Notes under the pieces: generated by a model
The model's database searches: none
Seen by the model: the letters and a program-made list of their open reading frames with translations, nothing else
What the model was told of the DNA's origin: nothing
Origin: Escherichia coli 042
GTDB taxonomy: Bacteria; Pseudomonadota; Gammaproteobacteria; Enterobacterales; Enterobacteriaceae
DNA length: 64,000 bases
Strand: one strand, 5' to 3'
Assembly: GCF_000027125.1 (NCBI RefSeq)
Contig: NC_017626.1
In this document: piece after piece, positions 11-32,826 of the stretch
How positions within the stretch are numbered: position 1 is the first letter of the stretch
Layout of the letters: each line of letters opens with the position of its first letter
Position numbers and translations under genes: made by a program

Positions 11-2320
11 ATGGAGTTATGGATATTTATAGTAGCTATTTATTTGATTTATATTCTTTTTTTCAAAAAGAAGAAAACTAAGTCCGCGGGCTCTTATACT
101 TCCGCTCCTGTGAAAGCACCACCTAAAGAATGGCTTGCTAACAACAAAAAAAATCAGTCTGTAATGCAAAACGAGGACAGCGAAGATGACAATCTGGCTA
201 CGTTTACACTAAGTGGCGGGCGGAATGTCGAATACAGCATAACAGCCACTCAACGCCAGAATTTCTCAAAAACTACCGGTGCTTTGGCTCGTTGGATTTT
301 TCCGGGAGAGATGATCACAGTCAGTGGGATAGAGGTTACCGGCGGTCACTTCTATCTTGGGCAGCGTATGAAACCTGCCGGGCATAACTCAGGCGGTTAT
401 TATGATGGCAATAACGAGGCATCGCTAGTTGACGACACGCTTAAAATATACCCCACACCTTACATTTACGAAGATAGTTCATTAGGGTATTGGCCCAGTT
501 TTTCCTCACTTTCACCTGAAGCTCGTGGTGCGTACCTGAGTTGGCTTGCCAGCGACAGATGCGACACTTCCTGCCCAATTGGTTACGTTTTCATTTATCT
601 GTATGGTCTGGAAAGAAGGGCGCTTGTTGACAGCAGGGACAACAATATATCCGACGATGAGTTCTATTCTCTTTTCAAAGAGATCTGCCGTCTCAGATCG
701 GTTTTCAATGAAAACCGATCTTTCCGGAATTACTCATCCCAGTTACTTGAAGCGATGTCCATTCTTCGTCCGAACGAAAATCTTGCAGCAGCTCTCAACG
801 ATGATTCGGAGTTCAGCAATAGCATGCAGTTCAGGTTAATCCTGGCAAAGACTGTTGATACAGGAGCCCCGGTTCCAGCGGATCTGGCTCTGACGTGGGT
901 GACAAACCATGCTGAATACTCATTACGAACCCCCGCCCGCCGCTGTGCGAAAGAATTTGCTGCACTATTTAAACGGCGTTACACCCTTAAATACGGTGAA
1001 GGGATGGTAGTGAAGCCGAATAAAGCGCGTCTGCGTTTAGATTACACGCCTGCAAGTCCCAGTTTGCGAGGTATTCGGCTTCCTGTTCCCGACTTGCCTG
1101 ATCCAGGTGCATTGAAAGGCCCTGTTCAGAAGCTTATGGCCATTGCCGATATATGCACAGGTGAACTGGATGCTTACAGTCGTTACCTTGGTAGAAAAGG
1201 TACTTCAGCAAATGATACCGCTGCAATTTTGTTGCTGCCTTCAGAAATCGTTAACGAAAGCGCAGAAAAAATATTAAGTACATTCAAACACTGGGCTGAT
1301 GACGCAATCCGCAGTAAGGGTGGGATAGTTTCAGTTGCTGACTACTGGTCACATATGAATGCCACCTGTCCGGCGAAGATCAATAAAAAAGAGGCCGACT
1401 TAATGCAAGCCTTTGCACAGAAAATGGGATACTGTCTGGCTCCTGACCCCTATCACCACCACGTAAAGGCAGATGTCGATGGTGTACTTGTTTTATTCCC
1501 TGCTGGTGAAAGAGGACGTTTCTCACCTTCTCCTGAATTTATCACAGCTGTATTGACGCTCCGATTAGGTTCGGTAGTCGCCTTGATTGACAATTCTCTC
1601 GATCAAGCCGAACAGAAAGTGCTTGAGAATGCCATCAACAACAATGCCAGCTTCAGCGATGATGAAAAGCGCTCTCTGCACGCATATTTAACGTGGCAGC
1701 TTCATACTCCGGCGAATATGACGGGAATGAAAAGCCGGATTGAATTACTCGGTGCAGCGGAAAAATCAGCTGTGGGTAAGGTTATCGTTAGTGTCGCTTG
1801 CTCTGACGGCAGAATTACGCCTGCCGAAATCAAACAGCTTGAGAAGATTTATACAAGCCTGGGACTGGATCCCTCATCCGTATCAAGCAATATCCATCAG
1901 CATTCCGCAACTGAAACTGCTCTCGTTTCATCTGTACCAGCTAATCAGTCGACGGCAGGGTTTACGCTGGATGCCAACGTACTTGCCCGCCACGAATCTG
2001 CCACTGATGATGTTCGTAAATTACTGAACTCAATTTTCACTGAAGAAGAACCAGAACAACCAGAAAGCGCTCCAGCCTCATTAACCGGGGAAGGGGGACT
2101 TGACTCCGCTCATAGCCAACTTTATCGCAGGTTGCTGGAGAAAGAACAATGGTCCAGAAAAGAGGCGACAGAGTTGTGTAGTAACTGGAACCTGATGCTC
2201 GGCGGTGCGCTTGAGGTGATTAACGATTGGTCCTATGCGGTGGTTGATGCACCAGTGCTGGAAGATGCTGATGATCACATTTGGATTGACCTGGAAATAG
2301 CCAAAGAATTAGAGGGTTAG
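11..2320 (+). CDS. Large protein with N-terminal hydrophobic helix; candidate SngA-like (TerB-N/TerB-C type) first gene of a Shango-like operon
   Basis: 769-aa ORF, ATG at position 11; stop is 4 bp before the next gene start. N-terminus MELWIFIVAIYLIYILFF is a predicted TM helix. TerB domain assignment is from recalled architecture, not a computed domain hit. Confidence 0.5.
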   Translation: MELWIFIVAIYLIYILFFKKKKTKSAGSYTSAPVKAPPKEWLANNKKNQSVMQNEDSEDDNLATFTLSGGRNVEYSITATQRQNFSKTTGALARWIFPGEMITVSGIEVTGGHFYLGQRMKPAGHNSGGYYDGNNEASLVDDTLKIYPTPYIYEDSSLGYWPSFSSLSPEARGAYLSWLASDRCDTSCPIGYVFIYLYGLERRALVDSRDNNISDDEFYSLFKEICRLRSVFNENRSFRNYSSQLLEAMSILRPNENLAAALNDDSEFSNSMQFRLILAKTVDTGAPVPADLALTWVTNHAEYSLRTPARRCAKEFAALFKRRYTLKYGEGMVVKPNKARLRLDYTPASPSLRGIRLPVPDLPDPGALKGPVQKLMAIADICTGELDAYSRYLGRKGTSANDTAAILLLPSEIVNESAEKILSTFKHWADDAIRSKGGIVSVADYWSHMNATCPAKINKKEADLMQAFAQKMGYCLAPDPYHHHVKADVDGVLVLFPAGERGRFSPSPEFITAVLTLRLGSVVALIDNSLDQAEQKVLENAINNNASFSDDEKRSLHAYLTWQLHTPANMTGMKSRIELLGAAEKSAVGKVIVSVACSDGRITPAEIKQLEKIYTSLGLDPSSVSSNIHQHSATETALVSSVPANQSTAGFTLDANVLARHESATDDVRKLLNSIFTEEEPEQPESAPASLTGEGGLDSAHSQLYRRLLEKEQWSRKEATELCSNWNLMLGGALEVINDWSYAVVDAPVLEDADDHIWIDLEIAKELEG

Positions 2321-2323
2321 TGA

Positions 2324-3640
2324 ATGTCTGTAACACGTATAAGAGTGAAAGAGCGCGACGCTATCATTCAGTCACTTAAGTCGGGAGTAACGCCAAGAAT
2401 AGGTATTCAGCATATCCAGGTTGGCCGCGTGAATGAGATAACCGCCCTCCATCAGGATATTGAACGGATTGCTGATGGCGGGGCAAGCTTCAGACTTATC
2501 ATTGGTGAGTACGGTTCCGGGAAAACATTCTTTTTAAGTGTTGTACGGTCTATTGCGTTAGAGAAGAAGCTGGTCACGGTCAGTGCAGACCTTTCTCCCG
2601 ACAGACGTATCCACTCATCGGGAGGTCAGGCTCGTAATCTCTACTCAGAGCTTATGAAAAATATGTCCACCAGAAACAAACCAGATGGCAATGCATTACT
2701 TAGCGTTGTGGAAAGGTTTGTTACTGAGGCAAGGAAGGAAGCTGATGCGAACGGCTCCCTGGTCTCATCCGTTATTCATAAACGCCTTGCTGCTTTGTCA
2801 GATATGGTGGGAGGATATGACTTTGCGAAGGTCATTGACGCATTCTGGCGCGGGCATGAGCAGGATAACGAAACCTTAAAATCCAATGCTATTCGCTGGT
2901 TGCGGGGCGAGTACACCACAAAAACTGATGCCCGTAATGATCTTGACGTCCGAACGATTATCTCAGACGCCTCGTTCTATGATTCTTTGAAGTTGATGAG
3001 CCTTTTTGTCCGTCAGGCAGGCTATGCCGGACTTTTAGTTAGCCTCGACGAGATGGTGAACCTCTTCAAGTTGAATAATACGCAAGCGAGAACGGCCAAC
3101 TACGAACAAATTTTGCGGATTCTGAATGACTGCCTGCAAGGCTCCGCCGAAAATATTGGTTTTATCCTCGGGGGGACGCCAGAATTTCTTTTCGATCCAC
3201 GTAAGGGGCTCTACAGCTATGAAGCGCTCCAGTCGCGTCTGGCAGAAAACCGATTCGCACAGAAAGCTGGCGTGATTGACTACTCGTCCCCCACGCTGCA
3301 TCTTGCCAGCCTCACTCCTGAGGAACTGTATATTTTACTGAAAAACCTTCGTCATGTTTATGCTGGTGGAGATCCCGTAAATTATCTGGTGCCAGATGAT
3401 GCTCTGACCGGGTTTCTGCATCACTGCAGCAAAACCATCGGAGATGCTTACTTTCGAACTCCCCGCAATACCATAAAAGGTTTTCTGGATATGCTGGCTG
3501 TGCTGGAACAAAACAGAACGATGAACTGGCAACCCCTCATTGAGGGGGTGGCGATTGAAGAAGACAAGCTCAGCGATATGGATGATGCCATTGTGGAGGA
3601 AAGTGATGACGATGATGGCCTGGCGAATTTCAGATTATGA
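2324..3640 (+). CDS. P-loop NTPase (Walker A GEYGSGKT, Walker B-like LLVSLDEM); candidate SngB-like ATPase
   Basis: 438-aa ORF with clear Walker A motif; stop overlaps the downstream helicase start (ATGA overlap at 3637-3640), implying translational coupling. Confidence 0.6.
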   Translation: MSVTRIRVKERDAIIQSLKSGVTPRIGIQHIQVGRVNEITALHQDIERIADGGASFRLIIGEYGSGKTFFLSVVRSIALEKKLVTVSADLSPDRRIHSSGGQARNLYSELMKNMSTRNKPDGNALLSVVERFVTEARKEADANGSLVSSVIHKRLAALSDMVGGYDFAKVIDAFWRGHEQDNETLKSNAIRWLRGEYTTKTDARNDLDVRTIISDASFYDSLKLMSLFVRQAGYAGLLVSLDEMVNLFKLNNTQARTANYEQILRILNDCLQGSAENIGFILGGTPEFLFDPRKGLYSYEALQSRLAENRFAQKAGVIDYSSPTLHLASLTPEELYILLKNLRHVYAGGDPVNYLVPDDALTGFLHHCSKTIGDAYFRTPRNTIKGFLDMLAVLEQNRTMNWQPLIEGVAIEEDKLSDMDDAIVEESDDDDGLANFRL

Positions 3641-5835
3641 GTAGTGCCTACAATAGTCTTGATCCCCGTGTCCGTAAGTGGGTTTATAAGCAGGGCTGGT
3701 CATCCTTAAGGCCCTTGCAGGAAAGCTCTATTCCGGCAATTTTAGCCCGTGATCGTGATGTACTAATTAGTGCAGGTACAGCTGCGGGTAAAACAGAGGC
3801 TTTCTTTCTTCCTGCCTGTTCAGCGATTGCAGATCTCACTGGTGGATTTGGCATTATCTATATCAGTCCATTGAAGGCATTAATTAACGATCAACACCGT
3901 CGTCTTGAGAGTCTTGGTGAAGCCCTGGAAATGCAAGTGACGCCCTGGCACGGGGATGTACCACAAAGCAAAAAGAAGAAAGCACGGACAACCCCTTCTG
4001 GCATCTTACTTATCACACCTGAATCACTTGAGTCTTTGCTCATAAACTCATTGGGTTGGCTCAAACAGGCGTTTTCTTCTGTGGCATACATTGTTATTGA
4101 TGAGTTCCATGCTTTTATTGGCTCAGAGCGTGGTATACAGCTGCTTTCTCTGCTTAACAGAATTGACCATGTGCTGGGACGCCAGTTGAATCCAGTTCCC
4201 CGTGTCGCGTTGAGTGCCACACTGGGAGAGCTGGAAAAAGTACCAGAACTATTGCGCCCGGATAAGAGATTACCTTGTGAAACGGTAACAGACAGTAATA
4301 GCAAAGCCACAATACAGGTTCAGGTTAAAGGTTATCTTGAGCGGGTGCCCGAAAAAGGAAAAGAGCTCCAGAGCTCTGCTGAACAGCTCGTCTGCGCGGA
4401 TATTTTCAGGCTCTGCCGTGGCGATTCCCACCTAGTCTTTGCTAACAGTCGAAAGCGTACTGAAAGCATAGCGGCAACACTGAGCGACATGTGTGAAGCA
4501 AATGTCGTTCCTAATGAATTCTTTCCTCATCATGGTTCCCTTGCAAGGGAGTTGCGTGAGGCGCTTGAAGCCCGACTGCAGAAAGGGAATTTGCCCACAA
4601 CCGCTGTTTGTACAATGACTCTGGAGCTGGGTATTGATATTGGTAAGGTGCAGTCTGTCATACAAGTGACACCTCCGCATTCTGTTTCCAGTCTGCGTCA
4701 ACGCATGGGACGTTCAGGGCGGCGCGATTCCCCATCGGTGCTGAGAATGTTAATTACTGAACCTGAACTTACCGCAACCAGCAGCATTGTGGATCATTTA
4801 CGGCTGCAGTTGGTTCAGGCGATGGCAATGATCAGGTTGATGATCTCTAAGCGCTGGTTCGAGCCTGCAGATATCCGGCAGAAACATTACTCCACACTAC
4901 TACACCAGATCTTGGCTATTACTGCGCAATGGGGAGGTGTTCGTGCCGATCAGCTCTGGTCACAACTTTGCCAGACAGGTCCGTTCCGGAATGTGGATAT
5001 AAATGACTTCAAAAGTCTGCTTAAACATATGGGGACATGTGGCCTGCTCACTCAACTAACCAGCGGTGAAATAGTTGTCGGGGCTGAGGGGGAGAAACTG
5101 ACTAATCACTACACGTTTTATACCGTATTCAATACACCTGAGGAGTTTCGCATTGTAACGGGAAACCGAACTCTTGGCACAGTGCCTGTAGACTCCCCAC
5201 TTTTGCCGGAGCAGCACATCATCTTCGGCGGACGGCGCTGGAAAGTGACAGAGATCGAGGTTGAAAAAAAGGTTATCTATGTTGAGACGACTAAAGGCGG
5301 TCAGCCGCCACTATTCAGTGGTAGCGGGATGTCTGTTCATGATGTTGTTCGCCAGGAAATGCTCACTATCTACAGGGAAAATGATTACCGTATCGCGGTA
5401 GGCAACAAGAGAGTCGATTATGCTGATGCCGCAGCCAGAAGCCTCTTCGCGGAAGGAAGTGACAACTTCCAACGCTACAATCTACAAAATGACTGTTTTA
5501 TTGCCAGTGGTCAGAACTGCTACGTGATCCCGTGGATGGGGGATAAAATTGTCAATACAATTACGTCCCTGCTTATACGTTGTGGCTTTAAAGCCAGTTC
5601 ATTTGCAGGTGTGATAGAGGTAGAGGACTCAGGCGTTGCCTCTGTCCAGCGTGCACTTAAGAAAATGCTATTGTCGGGGCTACCTTCAGAGTTTGAGCTT
5701 GCTGCAGTTGTTCCCGACAAGTATCTGGATAAATATGACGAGTATTTACCAGAGACTTTGCTTGCTAAAGGGTATGGGGCACAGGCGTATGATATAGAAG
5801 GAACGTGCATCTGGCTGCAGAAACACCTTCAGTAG
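3637..5835 (+). CDS. DExH-box superfamily 2 helicase with ~300-aa C-terminal extension; candidate SngC-like helicase
   Basis: 732-aa ORF with Q-motif/motif I (SAGTAAGKTEAF), motif II (VIDEFHAF), motif III (LSATLG) and helicase-C motif (QRMGRSGR). Confidence 0.7.
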   Translation: MSSAYNSLDPRVRKWVYKQGWSSLRPLQESSIPAILARDRDVLISAGTAAGKTEAFFLPACSAIADLTGGFGIIYISPLKALINDQHRRLESLGEALEMQVTPWHGDVPQSKKKKARTTPSGILLITPESLESLLINSLGWLKQAFSSVAYIVIDEFHAFIGSERGIQLLSLLNRIDHVLGRQLNPVPRVALSATLGELEKVPELLRPDKRLPCETVTDSNSKATIQVQVKGYLERVPEKGKELQSSAEQLVCADIFRLCRGDSHLVFANSRKRTESIAATLSDMCEANVVPNEFFPHHGSLARELREALEARLQKGNLPTTAVCTMTLELGIDIGKVQSVIQVTPPHSVSSLRQRMGRSGRRDSPSVLRMLITEPELTATSSIVDHLRLQLVQAMAMIRLMISKRWFEPADIRQKHYSTLLHQILAITAQWGGVRADQLWSQLCQTGPFRNVDINDFKSLLKHMGTCGLLTQLTSGEIVVGAEGEKLTNHYTFYTVFNTPEEFRIVTGNRTLGTVPVDSPLLPEQHIIFGGRRWKVTEIEVEKKVIYVETTKGGQPPLFSGSGMSVHDVVRQEMLTIYRENDYRIAVGNKRVDYADAAARSLFAEGSDNFQRYNLQNDCFIASGQNCYVIPWMGDKIVNTITSLLIRCGFKASSFAGVIEVEDSGVASVQRALKKMLLSGLPSEFELAAVVPDKYLDKYDEYLPETLLAKGYGAQAYDIEGTCIWLQKHLQ

Positions 5836-5851
5836 ACTGGATATGTAGTCA

Positions 5852-5884
5852 GGGTATAAATAAGTATTTATACCCTTATTTTTT
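5852..5884. terminator. Rho-independent terminator between the convergent helicase gene and the minus-strand cassette
   Basis: Perfect 11-bp inverted repeat gggtataaata / tatttataccc with a 2-nt loop, followed by ttatttttt. Confidence 0.5.
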
Positions 5885-6206
5885 ACTTACCTGTGGACTT
5901 ACTTGGCTTTAATCCCGGAGTATTGCCAGGAGTATCTTTATTATCGCGTCGGCGTTGATCCGGTTTTCCTGTTGACTTAGCAATTGGTTTTGGACCTGGT
6001 TTTAGACCCATGATAGTTATCCTTCGAGATGTAAGAGGAATGCCCTCAACATTGGTATATTCTATACTGAGAAATTTTTCAATGGGAATGTTCAACGGCC
6101 GAATGATTAACTCGATATTGTGAGCAATGTCTTTTTTTGGCACAGAGCGAACCGTTAGATTGCGCGTATTTTTATGGAAGGAGATCATCCAATAACGGTT
6201 ATTCAC
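5883..6206 (-). CDS. Hypothetical ORF (low-complexity, Pro/Lys-rich C-terminus); possibly a gene remnant
   Basis: 107-aa ORF; 5' end region (MISFHKNT) carries one copy of a 25-bp repeat also found at 10940-10964; 3' end overlaps the terminator T-tract. Confidence 0.25.
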   Translation of the reverse strand: MNNRYWMISFHKNTRNLTVRSVPKKDIAHNIELIIRPLNIPIEKFLSIEYTNVEGIPLTSRRITIMGLKPGPKPIAKSTGKPDQRRRDNKDTPGNTPGLKPSKSTGK

Positions 6207-6270
6207 CGATCTCCTTTATGGTAATACGAACCTGTTTTTTTAATATATAGAAAAATTACTCCGACATGTT

Positions 6271-6935: not shown

Positions 6936-7244
6936 TCAACAGACCGGTGTACCTTTTCTGAATACCTCCCCGGACGGACTGGCAATCCCCATTCGCCTCA
7001 GCGTGGCATCTGCAGCTTTCGCCACTTCGCTGATATCCAGCTTTTCAGGTAGCGGCGGGGACGATATCTGCGCCAGGCAATAATTCCTGCGCAACAACAA
7101 CCACTCCCGTTGTGCTTCTGTACATTCAACATTTCCCATAACAAAAAGCCAGCGGGCGGAAGCTCTGCGCCAGCAACCCGCAGCCTCCAGCTTCTGTGCA
7201 ACCATGTCTTCCACGACTTCCGGGGTACTCTTTTTCCTGCTCAA
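6936..7244 (-). CDS. Small PerC-like putative transcriptional regulator
   Basis: 102-aa ORF; segment LEAAGCWRRASARWLFVM resembles the PerC/Pch family core as recalled. 40 bp downstream of the ibrB-like gene. Confidence 0.4.
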   Translation of the reverse strand: MSRKKSTPEVVEDMVAQKLEAAGCWRRASARWLFVMGNVECTEAQREWLLLRRNYCLAQISSPPLPEKLDISEVAKAADATLRRMGIASPSGEVFRKGTPVC

Positions 7245-7283: not shown

Positions 7284-7922
7284 TCAGCGAACCGTCCATG
7301 CCGGACTGAAATCCTCTTCCAGAAACAGCTCCGTCAGCCCGCTAATCTGTTTCAACCTGAGAACTTCATCCTGGTCCATACCCAGCTCCGTACCAATACG
7401 TTCATCCGTCCAGCCCAGCCGCGACAGGTCCCTGACAATATCAGACATTGAAGTTATCTGGTGCTTCCCCCTGGCCCGGTTATGTCTAATGGTTGCAGCA
7501 ATACGTGAGGCCTGTCCCTTTCTTTCCGGATTAATACAGGTCACTGGCAACCAGCCCTTCAGGCGTTTTCCCGTACCTGCTTCCCTGCCCAGTAATTGAC
7601 GATGAAAACCATCCACGACCAGATAATGCTCCTTCTCTTCCGAGACAACCACAGGCTGCGTGAACCCATCCTGCTCCAGTGAATGTTTCAGCAGTTTCTT
7701 CTCACCCGGCGCCATGACATTGGGGTTATAATCGTTGGCCACCACCTCATCTGCTTTCACCCACAGCACACAGTCCACAGGCTCCTGTGCAAATGGACTG
7801 ACCTCATGAAGCACCCTGCGCAGATGATTCAGGGCCTGTATGGCCTCTTCTTCTGGTCGTTCCTGGCTGAAGTACTGACGAATCATGTTGCTCAGTATCT
7901 CCGGTGTCACAGAATCCCCCAT
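7284..7922 (-). CDS. ibrB: ParB/Srx-fold (ParB-like nuclease domain) protein, IbrB-like
   Basis: 212-aa ORF with a ParB-like core (YLVVDGFHRQ); start overlaps the upstream ibrA-like stop by 16 bp. Confidence 0.7.
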   Translation of the reverse strand: MGDSVTPEILSNMIRQYFSQERPEEEAIQALNHLRRVLHEVSPFAQEPVDCVLWVKADEVVANDYNPNVMAPGEKKLLKHSLEQDGFTQPVVVSEEKEHYLVVDGFHRQLLGREAGTGKRLKGWLPVTCINPERKGQASRIAATIRHNRARGKHQITSMSDIVRDLSRLGWTDERIGTELGMDQDEVLRLKQISGLTELFLEEDFSPAWTVR

Positions 7923-9139
7923 TCCTTCCTCCTTTCTTTCATACGCTGCAGATAACGTTCATAGTGCCGGGGTTTGTTCGGACTGAAGGAGAGGGTACGG
8001 CACCAGAAATCATTCTTTATGAGAGTCTTACAGATACGTCGCCAGGACGGAATATCCCGGCTCCCCAAGTCATTCTCCTGTTCATCCGGGATGTCATCCG
8101 GGAAGCCCCGCGTCTGATACCAGCGCAGATAGACAGCTATCTTGTTGCGGTAATGTTCTGCCGTTCTTTCCGGCATCACATCCAGCAGAAACATCGCATA
8201 GCTGCGCCAGGTATGATGGGCTGGTTTTGATATGCGCTTACGCAGGGCAAAATAAGCCCCGCTTTCATTGGCATAAAGTGCCCCGCTGGCAGCCCCTGAC
8301 ACCCGCTCACACATCCTGGCCCAGGTTTCCGGCTCCAGAACATGGTAAAGCCACAGTCCCTTACGTTGTTCAGGACCAAAAGGTTCACAGACACGCATGT
8401 TGCGTAACGGTACGCCGGCACGGTACATCAGGTCATACAGGGGATTGTAGATGGCACGGGTTCTGGTGTGATATATCCAGATATCACGAGTTTTCCAGTC
8501 ATACAGCGGATACATGGTGTAGTAAAACCCTTCAGGCGATGCCGTGGTCCAGGGCTTATCATCGGCGTATCTCAGTTTGCGCTGGGATACCAGTCCCATG
8601 AACCGGTTAAGGGACTCATCCGCACGGACACCGGTCAGTACTGCCACACCACATTTATTGTCTGCAAACCAGGAAGAAAATGCCGGAACAAATTCTTCAA
8701 ACGTCATGGCATACCGGTAAAAGGGAAAATACGCCATATCTGTAATGGCCCCCTCCGGTGGCTGGCGAACCCACTTCACACCAGACTCCCAGCATATCCA
8801 CTCCGGCTGAAACTGAGAAACACCGTTTACCGTGGTCAGGGGAAGTGCCACCCAGTAAAAGGTTTCCGTCACATCATGGTACATTTCCCGCATCTTCTGA
8901 ATATGTTCAATGGTGCACTGGTACTGAGCCTCCCAGTCAATGAACAGTACAGAGAAACGACGTTTTTTCCTGCGGGCCACATCAGCCAAAAGATGGAAAA
9001 GCACGGTGGAATCTTTACCACCGGAAAAAGAGAGACAAACTGATGGAAATGTTTCAAAAATCCACTCAATACGAGCAATTGCTGCACGCAGAACATTCTC
9101 TCCAGTAAGGACTTTCTCCGTTAAAAAATTATCATTCAT
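7907..9139 (-). CDS. ibrA: PAPS reductase-family PP-loop ATP-pyrophosphatase-like protein, IbrA-like
   Basis: 410-aa ORF with PP-loop motif SFSGGKDST near the N-terminus; size and pairing with a ParB-like gene match the ibrA/ibrB pair. Confidence 0.75.
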   Translation of the reverse strand: MNDNFLTEKVLTGENVLRAAIARIEWIFETFPSVCLSFSGGKDSTVLFHLLADVARRKKRRFSVLFIDWEAQYQCTIEHIQKMREMYHDVTETFYWVALPLTTVNGVSQFQPEWICWESGVKWVRQPPEGAITDMAYFPFYRYAMTFEEFVPAFSSWFADNKCGVAVLTGVRADESLNRFMGLVSQRKLRYADDKPWTTASPEGFYYTMYPLYDWKTRDIWIYHTRTRAIYNPLYDLMYRAGVPLRNMRVCEPFGPEQRKGLWLYHVLEPETWARMCERVSGAASGALYANESGAYFALRKRISKPAHHTWRSYAMFLLDVMPERTAEHYRNKIAVYLRWYQTRGFPDDIPDEQENDLGSRDIPSWRRICKTLIKNDFWCRTLSFSPNKPRHYERYLQRMKERRKEWGIL

Positions 9140-10040: not shown

Positions 10041-10964
10041 TTATATAAAACAGTAAAAGTGAATCAGCTTAACAAATGCATCTTTCATTTGTTTTTGCTG
10101 CTGCTCGCTTCCATTCTGGTTGCGGACTTCACCATAGTGACACAACTGTTCTTCTGCCAGGATATGCCGGTTAAAAGCCTGCATGATGCCAGACACCTCC
10201 GTTTTCAGCTCACTGACCGTCATGTATTTTCCCCGCTGTTCATCCGGACGGTTCAGGCGCTCAGCCAACAGCTGTAAGCGGGTCATGCCTTCGTTCCAGC
10301 CAGTCATCGCCTCTTCCGGGAGCGCACGACTCCTTGCACTCTTCTGCCAGTTATCCACCATTTCCTGAACACGAGGATTGTCGGGGAAAAGTACCATCAG
10401 TTGCTGCAGCAATTGCACACTGCGTTGCAGGTTGTATGCCGGGGGGAATTCTGTCAGTCGCGTTATCTGCTGACCGGAAAGGGTTATCCACTCTGACGCA
10501 TGATTTAACAGTGTTCTGCTGAGCTGCATCATCTGGTCTGCTGAAAGCACATCCGGTGAGGGTGTCAGCAGCGCCCTGAGTTGCTGCTCCGCCGGTGATG
10601 GCTGTGTCAGAAACTGCCATCCCGGAATGGCCACGCAGACCGCCAGCAATGCCGTACAGACACCTGTAACAAACGTTTTCAGAAACGTGAGCGGGGATTT
10701 TTGAAGGAAGAGTGTGGGCTCTGTTTTTGTTTCAGAAACAACATACACCAGACGGGAGTGCGGCAGGGTCTGATGTTCCTGCACATCCGGAGCTTCAAGC
10801 CTGAGTGCCTGCGCCAGTAGCGTTACCGGAGACGATACTTCCCCCTGCACAGGCTGGTTCTCCAGGCGGGTGATATATCCCTTCACCATGGCTTCCGGTA
10901 AAGCCACTTTACTGCTCTGTTTAAGTTCGTGCCAAGCCTGCGTATTTTCATGGAAGGAGATCAC
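10041..10964 (-). CDS. Hypothetical membrane protein; possible C-terminal portion of a VasL-like (ImpA_N + TM) protein
   Basis: 307-aa ORF with one predicted TM segment (TFVTGVCTALLAVCVAIPGW); track start is GTG; overlaps the upstream ImpA_N-like ORF in another frame. Confidence 0.4.
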   Translation of the reverse strand: MISFHENTQAWHELKQSSKVALPEAMVKGYITRLENQPVQGEVSSPVTLLAQALRLEAPDVQEHQTLPHSRLVYVVSETKTEPTLFLQKSPLTFLKTFVTGVCTALLAVCVAIPGWQFLTQPSPAEQQLRALLTPSPDVLSADQMMQLSRTLLNHASEWITLSGQQITRLTEFPPAYNLQRSVQLLQQLMVLFPDNPRVQEMVDNWQKSARSRALPEEAMTGWNEGMTRLQLLAERLNRPDEQRGKYMTVSELKTEVSGIMQAFNRHILAEEQLCHYGEVRNQNGSEQQQKQMKDAFVKLIHFYCFI

Positions 10965-11388
10965 TCAGTGTCTTCAGGAATGTTTCGGTCTGATACAGCA
11001 GGGGCAGGTTGTCACGGTTATCCGGAGGCATGGCCCGGAGCGTTTTTTGCAGACGGTTGAACAGACCGGTAATAATTTCCAGCCGGGAGTGTGTATTCAG
11101 CGGCCACATCACTGACCAGTGATGCCGGGTCAGCGCAGCAATCAGAGCCAGCCCTTCATTCAGACCACTTAACCCTGTTGTATGCATCCGGGCAATGGTG
11201 TACCAGGATGCCGTCTGTAATTCCACGCCATTGTGTTCATACAGACGCAGGCAGAGCGTTTCCACGTAACGCCAGTCCACATCAGGGCGTGCCGGGTGGG
11301 TCAGTTTGCTGATTTCATCGCGCAGGGCAGCATAATCCGGTAATGACCGGGGGTCACCACCGGTTTTCAGTTTCACTTCAGAAGTCAT
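10948..11388 (-). CDS. ImpA_N-like domain protein (TssA/VasL N-terminal domain family); possibly the N-terminal portion of a frameshifted gene
   Basis: 146-aa ORF; pattern DYAALRDEI...DVDWRYVETLCLRL...GLSGLNEGLALIAAL resembles the ImpA N-terminal domain as recalled. Confidence 0.4.
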   Translation of the reverse strand: MTSEVKLKTGGDPRSLPDYAALRDEISKLTHPARPDVDWRYVETLCLRLYEHNGVELQTASWYTIARMHTTGLSGLNEGLALIAALTRHHWSVMWPLNTHSRLEIITGLFNRLQKTLRAMPPDNRDNLPLLYQTETFLKTLSDLLP

Positions 11389-11781
11389 CGGCAGATTCAG
11401 TGTTTAGGTATTAAACCATTGTTAATTATAGGGAGAGAGTCAGTGCGATACCGTTACCCAGGAAAGGTATTCCACTGCGCAGATGATTGCCGGTGTCACA
11501 TCCCACCGCCGTTTCAGAACCGGTAACAGCTCATTAAGGTTTCTGATATAACGCTCAGTGAAAACCGGACTGATTACAGGTAATGGTGATATGACAGGTA
11601 TCGTTGCCAATATACACGGCTTCCAGAGGTATGAATCTTACATTCCAGTACCAGGAGTACGGCGAGTGGTTCAGATGAAAAAGACGCATCTGAATATCGT
11701 TAAATAACGGGTTCATGGCGAATTAAATAAACCTGATAATAACAGTATGGGGAAAGTCCGGAATAAAGAAATGGTCCGGTA

Positions 11782-13569
<1,788 letters not shown>

Positions 13570-13627: not shown

Positions 13628-14021
<394 letters not shown>

Positions 14022-31399: not shown

Positions 31400-32826
31400 G
31401 TTGATGACTCCTGAAAGTTAATGATGTTTTAAGCTCTGTGAACGAATTAATGCTTTCGCTCATAATCAGATCTAAAACGGTAATAACTTACAGATGGTAT
31501 TTATCAGGCATGCTGTAGCAGAATGGATACGACGGGTTATTAACGATACGCAGCATTATGCAGAAAGAAATGGATTATCTGATGGTATTAGCTAAAGAGA
31601 TGAGATAAACGAGGAGTAAAGAAAATACAGACTCAATAAAACATCACGAAATACTGCAAAATACGCGATAAAACACCACGACCAGAAGGTTAAGAAACAT
31701 ATTGCGACCAATCATAAACTACAAACTTGCTCTCAGTGGTTGTAAAAACCGTGTACAAGGCCAATGCAATAAACTTATATGCGCTCATTCAATCTGTTCT
31801 TAAGGACATGAACATTCACGGCTCACGATAGCAGAATAAAAAATACCACTGACATGATTTTCATCCTGCATCTTAGATAATACAACCCAGAACAAACATA
31901 ATCAGGAATCTCTCCTGTCAATTCCATTGTTTATCCAGCTCTGTTAATCGTTACAGAATCATGGATACCTTATCAAAAAGTAAACATTCGGTTAATCAGT
32001 AATGACAAAAGAATTGATGTTCATCAGAATAGTTAAAACACTTCAGATAAACAATTATCGTTAAGTAAATACAGTTCATGATGGATAAGATTAAAATCAA
32101 TTACTGTTTCAGTGAAGACTGATAACAGATGAATATCATCAGTAGAATGGTAGAGGATAACTTATCTGAGTATCGTATGAATTACAGTAGTTATGCCTAA
32201 TGAAGAAGGAAGTGGATATTATGATAATGGTGACAATGAAGATTAGACAAAGAAGAGTGTGAGTAAAGACAGAGTGAATATAATTATAGTAATAAACCTA
32301 AATTAAAATTATCCATGTTTGATGTAAAATAATAATATACTGACAACCATGAAGATAAGAAAAAGAGAGTGCAGGTATCAGGAAGATCTCAGGATATGAA
32401 GATTCCCACAACACAGATTTAAAATCAGTCGAATATAATAAATTTAAAAACCTTAATTAAAATGTAATCTCATCCATGGTTAACATGCTCCTGAAAAGAA
32501 AATTTACAAATACCGTATGCTACCAACTAATTACAACAATGATATATGTACATTCAATAAGAATACAGATAAAATATTAATACCAACTTCCAGTATCAAG
32601 ATCGTATCGCGAACTTCAGATGCGCTATGAGGCAGTTCAATTTTTAACTTTCGTTTTCCTCTTCCTCCCTGGCTTCATATGCATAAGCGACTTGAAAGAC
32701 CCGATGATAGTTACAATTTCAGGTTGTGGCATGACGATCAATTTGTAACTGAAACAATGAACGGTAACGCTGCCATATAAACATCAAAATGCGAGCATTA
32801 CAGCGACATTGAACCGATTAGATGTA

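What the first reader, a model, noticed from the sequence alone, without database searches (positions are those of the whole stretch)
10041..11388. Split ImpA_N/VasL-like gene outside any type VI secretion cluster
The 146-aa ORF has an ImpA_N-like pattern and overlaps a 307-aa ORF with a single TM helix in a different frame. Together they resemble a VasL/TssA-like membrane protein split by a frameshift, and the frame junction coincides with one copy of the 25-bp repeat. No other T6SS genes are in the window.
Basis: partly seen in the sequence, partly recalled or inferred. Interest (0 to 1): 0.4.

Follow-up and report, generated by a model that had tools for sequence, protein, structure and literature searches.

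The report
Broken leftover T6SS tagA gene
This is an ordinary dead gene: the last gene (tagA) of an E. coli type VI secretion cluster, stranded in a genomic island after the rest of the cluster was lost and then split in two by the 22-base scar of an insertion sequence.

Summary
On the minus strand, a 146-aa ORF (10948-11388) holds a complete ImpA_N domain. A 307-aa ORF (10041-10964) holds one hydrophobic helix and a complete VasL domain. They overlap by 17 nt in different frames. Together they are tagA, the accessory "sheath stopper" gene of the E. coli T6SS-1 (Sci-1) cluster.

Single 443-465-aa ORFs exist in other strains, including one allele 99.6% identical in the same context. Relatives with 84-87% protein identity are the last gene of intact-looking T6SS clusters.

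The window lies in the pheV island and keeps only the 3' end of such a cluster: a NERD/UvrD helicase, a small ORF and tagA. No other T6SS gene is present.

The frameshift is not a sequencing error. Six native bases are replaced by 22 bases (net +16) that match the outer end of an IS21-family element (ISEc12-like), joined through a 7-nt microhomology. The identical scar is in 355 of 5426 complete E. coli genomes.

The second copy (6164-6187) belongs to a 68-bp mini-element made of two abutted IS ends.

Verdict: a known kind of pseudogene, of low interest.

The parts
10948..11388 (-). 5' fragment of the tagA pseudogene (146 aa). It holds the complete ImpA_N domain (residues 8-109, about 11062-11367). 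Its stop codon (TGA, 10948-10950) lies inside the IS-derived scar.
   Evidence: RefSeq annotates it as WP_001403216.1, 'type VI secretion system ImpA family N-terminal domain-containing protein'.
10041..10964 (-). 3' fragment of the tagA pseudogene (a 307-aa ORF if read from GTG 10962-10964). It holds the linker, one hydrophobic/TM helix (about 10614-10685) and the complete VasL domain (residues 164-302, about 10059-10475).
   Evidence: RefSeq annotates only 10041-10532 as a 'VasL domain-containing protein'.
10939..10960 (-). 22 nt derived from the outer end of an IS21-family (ISEc12-like) element (gene strand: TCTCCTTCCATGAAAATACGCA). They replace the native CACACT, for a net +16 nt, and cause the frameshift.
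   Evidence: Alignment with the intact alleles L005/L006/L002/L003. Comparison with the ISEc12 ends in L014-L016 and the IS-end remnants in L017/L018.
10961..10967 (-). 7-nt microhomology TGAGTGA, shared by native tagA and by the IS left end. This is the inferred deletion junction that removed the rest of the IS.
   Evidence: Read directly from the sequences: native ...ACTGAGTGACACACT..., ISEc12 IRL ...TTATTGAGTGATCTCC.... The mechanism is an inference.
10932..10938 (-). Native flank directly after the IS end (GGCTTGG on the gene strand). It differs from every other allele (GGCCCGG) by a tandem CC>TT change. Unexplained.
11440..11716 (-). Small ORF (101 aa in relatives where it is unbroken, e.g. 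L011, L021/L022) that precedes tagA in T6SS clusters. Here it is broken by a 29-nt deletion at about 11563, a deletion also present in the allele whose tagA is intact (L005).
11782..13569 (-). NERD + UvrD-type helicase gene. In Salmonella and some E. coli it sits between tssE and tagA. Here it marks the upstream end of what is left of the cluster (homology ends at 13661).
   Evidence: (PADLOC C3a187, E=4.5e-140).
6163..6230 (-). 68-bp mini-element made of an IS21-family right end and left end abutted (IRR-type at 6198-6230, IRL-type at 6162-6194).
   Evidence: The IRL-type motif occurs at the corresponding place in L003, L004 and L006.

Best explanation
The two ORFs are the halves of tagA. TagA is the membrane-anchored, TssA-like accessory protein of the E. 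coli T6SS-1/Sci-1 machine. Its ImpA_N domain binds the TssA cap, and its hydrophobic helix plus VasL domain hold it at the inner membrane. This lets it stop sheath growth and hold the sheath at the far side of the cell.

In this pheV island the T6SS core genes upstream have been lost. Only the cluster's 3' end survives: a NERD/UvrD helicase, a small ORF and tagA.

An IS21-family element (ISEc12-like) then inserted into the linker between the ImpA_N domain and the TM helix. Almost all of it was later deleted between a TGAGTGA in tagA and the same heptamer inside the IS left end. That left a 22-nt IS end in place of 6 native bases (net +16 nt). The reading frame shifts and a stop codon inside the scar ends the first ORF.

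The TssA-binding module is therefore uncoupled from its membrane anchor, and no T6SS is encoded in the window for it to act on. The locus is best read as a non-functional relic.

Shown: domain content, intact alleles, position in the cluster, the exact lesion, its identity with an IS end, and its spread across genomes. Inferred: the order insertion-then-deletion and the loss of function.
For: Domains. Intact single-ORF alleles: 443 aa at 99.6% nt identity in the same NERD-to-IbrA context (L005). Other intact alleles are L006, L002 and L003.

Proteins with 84-87% identity (P0044, P0023) are the last gene after tssA-tssF-tssG-tssJ-vgrG-tssE. The whole block at window 13661-10090 is 91-92% identical to NERD-smallORF-tagA placed directly after tssA-tssF-tssG-tssJ-tssE, both in Salmonella and in E. 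coli P0301867.4.

Lesion: native GAGTGA-CACACT-GGCCCGG versus window GAGTGA-TCTCCTTCCATGAAAATACGCA-GGCTTGG. The IS21-like ISEc12 copies (2581 bp, ends TGCGTATT...AATACGCA, 5-7-bp target duplications) end in ...TTGAGTGATCTCCTTTCATGAAAATACGCA. The exact 23-mer of the scar occurs at IS-end remnants in L017 and L018.

The identical scar is in 355 of 5426 complete genomes. About 274 genomes have the uninterrupted junction.

No other T6SS genes in the window. Scar-bearing genomes listed mostly have only one tagA-like place.

TagA function: PMC6745524, PMC6450956, PMC7545191.
Against: No intermediate allele with a full IS at this site was found; I did not search for one specifically.

The tandem CC>TT change next to the scar is not explained by the model.

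I did not check whether scar-bearing strains carry another T6SS (for example T6SS-2) elsewhere. I also did not test expression, so 'non-functional' is an inference.

I could not retrieve the EAEC 042 TagA sequence (EC042_4550) to confirm orthology directly. Orthology rests on domain architecture and position in the cluster.
Confidence: 0.85

Rival explanations
1. The frameshift is a sequencing or assembly error and the gene is really intact.
For: Single-base homopolymer errors are common in assemblies.
Against: The lesion is a 22-for-6-nt replacement, not a homopolymer slip. The identical 75-nt junction is present in 355 independent complete genomes.
Confidence: 0.01
2. The 22-nt tract was copied into tagA from the mini-element 4.8 kb away (6163-6230). 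This would be a short-patch ectopic conversion or template switch rather than a local IS insertion followed by deletion.
For: The two copies share 23 of 24 nt and lie in the same orientation in the same island.
Against: The scar matches canonical IS ends better than it matches the mini-element. The scar has ATGAAAAT and the terminal ...ACGCA, as do ISEc12 and the IS-end remnant in L018. The mini-element has ATAAAAAT and ...ACGCG. The similarity stops exactly at the IS terminus, and the left junction is a 7-nt microhomology with the ISEc12-type IRL (TTGAGTGA) that the mini-element lacks (TTGGATGA).
Confidence: 0.08
3. The split is functional. The two halves are made as separate polypeptides (restart at the GTG that overlaps the stop), or are joined by ribosomal frameshifting, and still act on a T6SS encoded elsewhere in the genome.
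For: The ORFs overlap by 17 nt, and the downstream frame has a GTG inside the overlap. Both domains are complete. The scar lies in an inter-domain linker, and the allele is common.
Against: All copies of the split form are at least 99% identical, so it is a recent lesion. There is no Shine-Dalgarno sequence before the GTG and no slippery site next to the stop (sequence). RefSeq calls the 3' part from a different, internal ATG. The small ORF upstream is also broken, and there are no T6SS genes in the window. TagA's described role needs the TssA-binding domain tethered to the membrane (PMC6450956).
Confidence: 0.05

Closest known systems
TagA of enteroaggregative E. coli Sci-1/T6SS-1 (the ImpA_N-TM-VasL class of TssA-like proteins; called VasL/TagA in Vibrio cholerae)
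   Same: [quoted passage not shown] Homologues with 84-87% protein identity occupy the last position of T6SS-1 clusters, after tssE. The architecture and role are as described in PMC6745524 and PMC6450956.
   Different: Here the gene is split by a +16-nt IS scar, and the cluster it belonged to is gone. Direct sequence comparison with EC042_4550 was not possible with the tools.
TssA (ImpA_N + VasJ), the core cap protein of the T6SS
   Same: It shares the ImpA_N domain. There are weak matches to solved TssA N-terminal domains (6hs5 at E=6.9e-5; 6rju and 6g7b weaker).
   Different: It has no VasJ C-terminal domain. NCBIfam TssA equivalog scores (81.7 and 43.6 bits) are far below the cut-offs (230 and 161). 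It carries a TM helix and a VasL domain instead.
IS21-family insertion sequence ISEc12 (istA/istB) and its solo-end or MITE-like remnants
   Same: The scar and the second repeat copy match the outer part of the 33-nt ISEc12 terminal repeat tested: the scar copy with 3 mismatches over 33 nt, the 6162-6194 copy with 6. The scar ends with the canonical ...CA terminus.
   Different: Only 22-29 nt of one end remain in tagA. No transposase gene or second end is present. One base differs from ISEc12 itself (CTTCC versus CTTTC), so the parent was a close relative rather than ISEc12 proper.

Membership tests
TagA / VasL-class TssA-like proteins | N-terminal ImpA_N domain (PF06812) | tested here: met
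   E=1.1e-18, 67.9 bits against a cut-off of 26.9, model positions 9-117 of 119, on the 146-aa ORF.
TagA / VasL-class TssA-like proteins | Hydrophobic / transmembrane segment after the ImpA_N domain | tested here: met
   One stretch only, ORF2 residues about 91-120 (FLKTFVTGVCTALLAVCVAIPGW), Kyte-Doolittle 19-residue mean up to 2.08. No dedicated TM predictor was available.
TagA / VasL-class TssA-like proteins | C-terminal VasL domain (PF12486) | tested here: met
   E=5.2e-29, 101.6 bits against a cut-off of 27.3, model positions 2-141 of 147, on the 307-aa ORF.
TagA / VasL-class TssA-like proteins | All three parts on one polypeptide | tested here: not met
   The parts are split into two frames by the +16-nt scar. 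The feature is met in the intact alleles L005, L006, L002 and L003.
TagA / VasL-class TssA-like proteins | Encoded within a T6SS gene cluster | tested here: not met
   There are no T6SS core genes in the 64-kb window. The feature is met for 84-87%-identical homologues and for the 91-92%-identical NERD-tagA block in L021-L024.
TagA / VasL-class TssA-like proteins | Binds TssA and stops/holds the extended sheath | not testable with these tools
   Known only from experiments on EAEC and V. cholerae (PMC6450956, PMC6745524, PMC7545191).
TssA (core T6SS cap protein) | ImpA_N domain plus a VasJ-type C-terminal oligomerisation domain; passes the TIGR03362/TIGR03363 cut-offs | tested here: not met
   Only the N-terminal 110 residues match. 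Scores of 81.7 and 43.6 bits compare with cut-offs of 230.1 and 160.85. There is no VasJ hit.
IS21-family insertion sequence | Two terminal inverted repeats (TG...CA) flanking istA and istB, with target-site duplication | tested here: not met
   Only one partial end (22-29 nt) is present at 10939-10967. There are no ist genes, no second end and no duplication. It is a remnant, not an element.

The most novel reading that the evidence does not exclude
TagA-like proteins stranded next to defence genes might have a role that does not depend on the T6SS. In this island those genes are the NERD/UvrD helicase, IbrAB and Shango. One such role would be a membrane anchor co-opted by the neighbouring NERD/UvrD helicase. 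On this reading the scarred allele, with its separate ImpA_N and TM-VasL products, would be a functional variant rather than a corpse. The evidence that does not exclude this: tagA stays intact in several contexts where its neighbours are degraded (L005, L006, L002), and dN/dS is 0.14-0.32. The evidence that weakens it: the same NERD-tagA block also exists attached to T6SS core genes, so that selection can be explained by ordinary T6SS service.
Probability: 0.03. Interest if true: 0.55.

Novelty: already known. Interest (0 to 1): 0.12.

Why it matters
It matters little biologically. It is one more example of T6SS decay in E. coli genomic islands and of IS elements leaving short scars that inactivate genes.

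It has modest practical value:
- It explains a recurrent pair of 'ImpA_N domain' and 'VasL domain' CDSs in RefSeq E. coli genomes as one pseudogene.
- It shows that the 24-nt repeat is an IS21-family end.
- It flags that automatic annotation also fragments alleles that are in fact intact.

Tried and rejected
1. Sequencing error: rejected.

2. Chance repeat: rejected, with 0 of 100 shuffles matching.

3. Orphan tagA under its own purifying selection. Pairwise dN/dS is 0.14-0.32 for tagA and 0.13-0.18 for the adjacent NERD helicase, with similar dS. This at first suggested long-term maintenance outside a T6SS. I dropped it as evidence once the same NERD-tagA block was found directly downstream of tssA-tssF-tssG-tssJ-tssE in Salmonella and E. 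coli.

4. PGAP calls in strains WS4437A-1 and DLI.5a suggested independent pseudogenisation. Translation shows uninterrupted 454- and 455-aa frames, so those calls are annotation artefacts.

5. Fetching the EAEC 042 genome (NC_017626.1) to compare with EC042_4550 failed because the record is not in the collection. The Santin et al. 2018 paper is not held.

6. PADLOC has no model matching TagA.

7. The apparent extension of the IS match into the flank in hit H47 was another ISEc12 copy with a chance flank match.

Full report
**What is there.** The minus strand carries two overlapping ORFs exactly as reported: 10948-11388 (146 aa) and 10041-10964 (307 aa, GTG start). The overlap is 17 nt, in different frames. 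Pfam assigns a complete ImpA_N domain to the first (E=1.1e-18) and a complete VasL domain to the second (E=5.2e-29). The NCBIfam TssA equivalogs match only the N-terminal 110 residues, far below cut-off. The second ORF has one strongly hydrophobic stretch, FLKTFVTGVCTALLAVCVAIPGW. ImpA_N, then a TM segment, then VasL is the architecture that the literature calls TagA. TagA is the accessory TssA-like protein that recruits the TssA cap to the membrane and terminates and holds the extended sheath in EAEC T6SS-1 (PMC6745524; PMC6450956; PMC7545191).

**Where the window comes from.** The window is an E. coli pheV genomic island. It is 99.9% identical to strain H3 over window 1-49747, apart from one IS1414 copy that H3 has and the window lacks. 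The annotation of that stretch and of the remaining capsule region shows no other T6SS gene. The neighbours are defence-type genes:
- Shango SngABC at 11-5835.
- IbrB/IbrA at 7284-9139.
- A NERD+UvrD helicase at 11782-13569.

**Is it one gene split in two?** Yes. A search with the joined protein finds many single proteins of 443-465 aa carrying both domains, and the alignment is collinear across the junction. One metagenomic E. coli contig (L005) has a 443-aa ORF that is 99.6% identical at the DNA level, in the same NERD-to-IbrA context. L006 is a second intact allele in a similar context, where only a remnant of the NERD helicase is left. Two complete genomes whose RefSeq annotation shows only pseudogene fragments (WS4437A-1 and DLI.5a) in fact have uninterrupted 454- and 455-aa frames. 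The split form occurs only in copies at least 99% identical to the window. It is therefore a recent derived lesion and not a conserved two-gene arrangement.

**Where the gene belongs.** The common homologues with 84-87% protein identity (P0044, P0023) are the last gene of T6SS-1-type clusters: tssA-tssF-tssG-tssJ-vgrG-(effector/immunity)-tssE-small ORF-tagA. Variable cargo follows. Window 11716-10090 is 88% identical to that segment. In Salmonella (L021/L022) and in E. coli P0301867.4 (L023/L024), a block 91-92% identical to window 13661-10090 lies directly after tssA-tssF-tssG-tssJ-tssE. That block consists of the NERD/UvrD helicase, the small ORF and tagA. In strain DLI.5a the same block is flanked by tssB and by truncated tssC, hcp and clpV. 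The window therefore retains the vestigial 3' end of a T6SS-1 cluster whose core genes have been lost. Upstream homology ends at 13661, next to an IS fragment. The small ORF in front of tagA is broken by a 29-nt deletion, which is already present in the allele with intact tagA.

**The lesion.** Intact alleles read ...CTGAGTGA CACACT GGCCCGGCACG.... The window reads ...CTGAGTGA TCTCCTTCCATGAAAATACGCA GGCTTGGCACG.... That is 22 nt in place of 6, a net gain of 16 nt. The stop codon of the first ORF lies inside the new tract.

A search with 75 nt across the junction gave two kinds of hit. One was 355 genomes with the identical junction. The other was thousands of partial matches scattered over chromosomes and plasmids. 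Three of the partial matches that I inspected lie at the boundary of IS21-like ISEc12 copies that interrupt tssM, traI and a DUF3592 gene. ISEc12 is 2581 bp long, begins TGCGTATT..., ends ...TTGAGTGATCTCCTTTCATGAAAATACGCA, and makes 5-7-bp target duplications. The exact 23-mer of the scar occurs at IS-end remnants elsewhere (L017, L018).

The inserted tract is thus the outermost 22 nt of an IS21-family left end. The heptamer TGAGTGA is shared by the gene and by the IS repeat. The simplest history is an IS insertion in the linker between ImpA_N and the TM helix, followed by a microhomology-mediated deletion that removed nearly the whole element. This order of events is inferred; I did not find or look for an allele with a full IS at the site. 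A tandem CC>TT change beside the scar remains unexplained.

The second copy (6164-6187) is part of a 68-bp mini-element at 6163-6230. That element consists of an IS21-type right end abutted to a left end. The left-end motif occurs at the corresponding position in L003, L004 and L006. It differs from the scar at two diagnostic positions, including the terminal CA. The scar is therefore more likely an independent IS event than a copy of this element.

**Rivals.**
- Sequencing error is excluded.
- A functional split or programmed frameshift is unlikely. I saw no Shine-Dalgarno sequence or slippery site in the overlap. The lesion is recent, the neighbouring small ORF is also broken, and TagA's known role needs the TssA-binding domain tethered to the membrane.
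- I also asked whether stranded tagA is kept by selection. dN/dS is 0.14-0.32, against 0.13-0.18 for the NERD helicase, with similar dS. Because the NERD-tagA block also exists attached to T6SS core genes, this constraint does not need any T6SS-independent function.

**Frequency.** Of 5426 complete E. coli genomes, 355 carry the identical scar. About 274 have an uninterrupted junction, and 471 have at least 80% of the NERD-smallORF-tagA block.

**Verdict.** The feature is a relic pseudogene of a known T6SS accessory gene, inactivated by an IS21-family scar. It is already annotated in RefSeq as two domain-named CDSs. It is not novel and is of low interest.

Noticed in passing
window 6163-6230: A 68-bp MITE-like mini-element made of an IS21-family right end abutted to a left end. 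It supplies the SD-like AAGGAG and the GTG start of the annotated 107-aa hypothetical ORF 5883-6206, so the 5' end of that ORF may be an artefact of the IS ends.
   Followed up: partly
L002 9900-11320 and L003 9900-11330 (strains WS4437A-1 and DLI.5a); also 'none' annotated under the uninterrupted junctions: RefSeq/PGAP annotates intact tagA alleles of about 450 aa as two or three partial pseudogene fragments (ImpA_N, hypothetical or 'POTRA domain-containing', VasL), although the frame is uninterrupted. The 'POTRA' label on the TM region (window about 10584-10712) matches no POTRA signal in Pfam and looks like a propagated mis-annotation.
   Followed up: partly
window 11-5835 (+): A three-gene Shango anti-phage system: SngA (TerB_N), SngB (BrxD-like ATPase) and SngC (DEAD helicase). 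PADLOC E-values are 8.6e-100, 3.8e-186 and 1.2e-277.
   Followed up: yes
window 11782-13569 (-); L021 5830-7575; L023 4654-6399: A NERD+UvrD helicase (PADLOC candidate C3a187) sits between tssE and tagA inside apparently intact T6SS clusters of Salmonella and E. coli. It is accompanied there by YdcA and GIY-YIG/T5orf172 genes. Downstream of tagA the cargo varies: OLD-family nucleases, Qat, IbrAB. The 3' end of this T6SS cluster looks like a hotspot for defence cargo.
   Followed up: partly
window 10041-10090 (-): The last 15 or so codons of tagA belong to a divergent 3' module (…KDAFVKLIHFYCFI). This module differs between alleles, and DNA homology to the T6SS-linked alleles ends at 10078-10090. 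This suggests a recombination junction inside the 3' end of the gene.
   Followed up: partly
window 11440-11716 (-): The small ORF preceding tagA carries a 29-nt deletion here and in L005. It carries premature stops at different places in L008, L006 and L002, including in a T6SS-linked copy (L008). It may not be a real or essential gene.
   Followed up: partly
window 10934-10935: A tandem CC>TT change (gene strand) lies immediately next to the IS-end scar and is absent from all other alleles examined. No explanation.
   Followed up: no
window 7284-9139 (-): An IbrB-like (ParB-type) and IbrA-like (PAPS-reductase + DUF3440) gene pair, with a PerC-family regulator at about 6936-7205. The IbrA/IbrB genes recur downstream of tagA in L003, L006, L022 and L023, and the PerC gene in L003, L006 and L023.
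   Followed up: no
window about 32475-32483: Strain H3 has an IS1414 insertion here that the window lacks. After 49747 the window carries capsule (kps-type) genes where H3 has yghD/pitB. The window's strain is therefore not H3 itself.
   Followed up: partly
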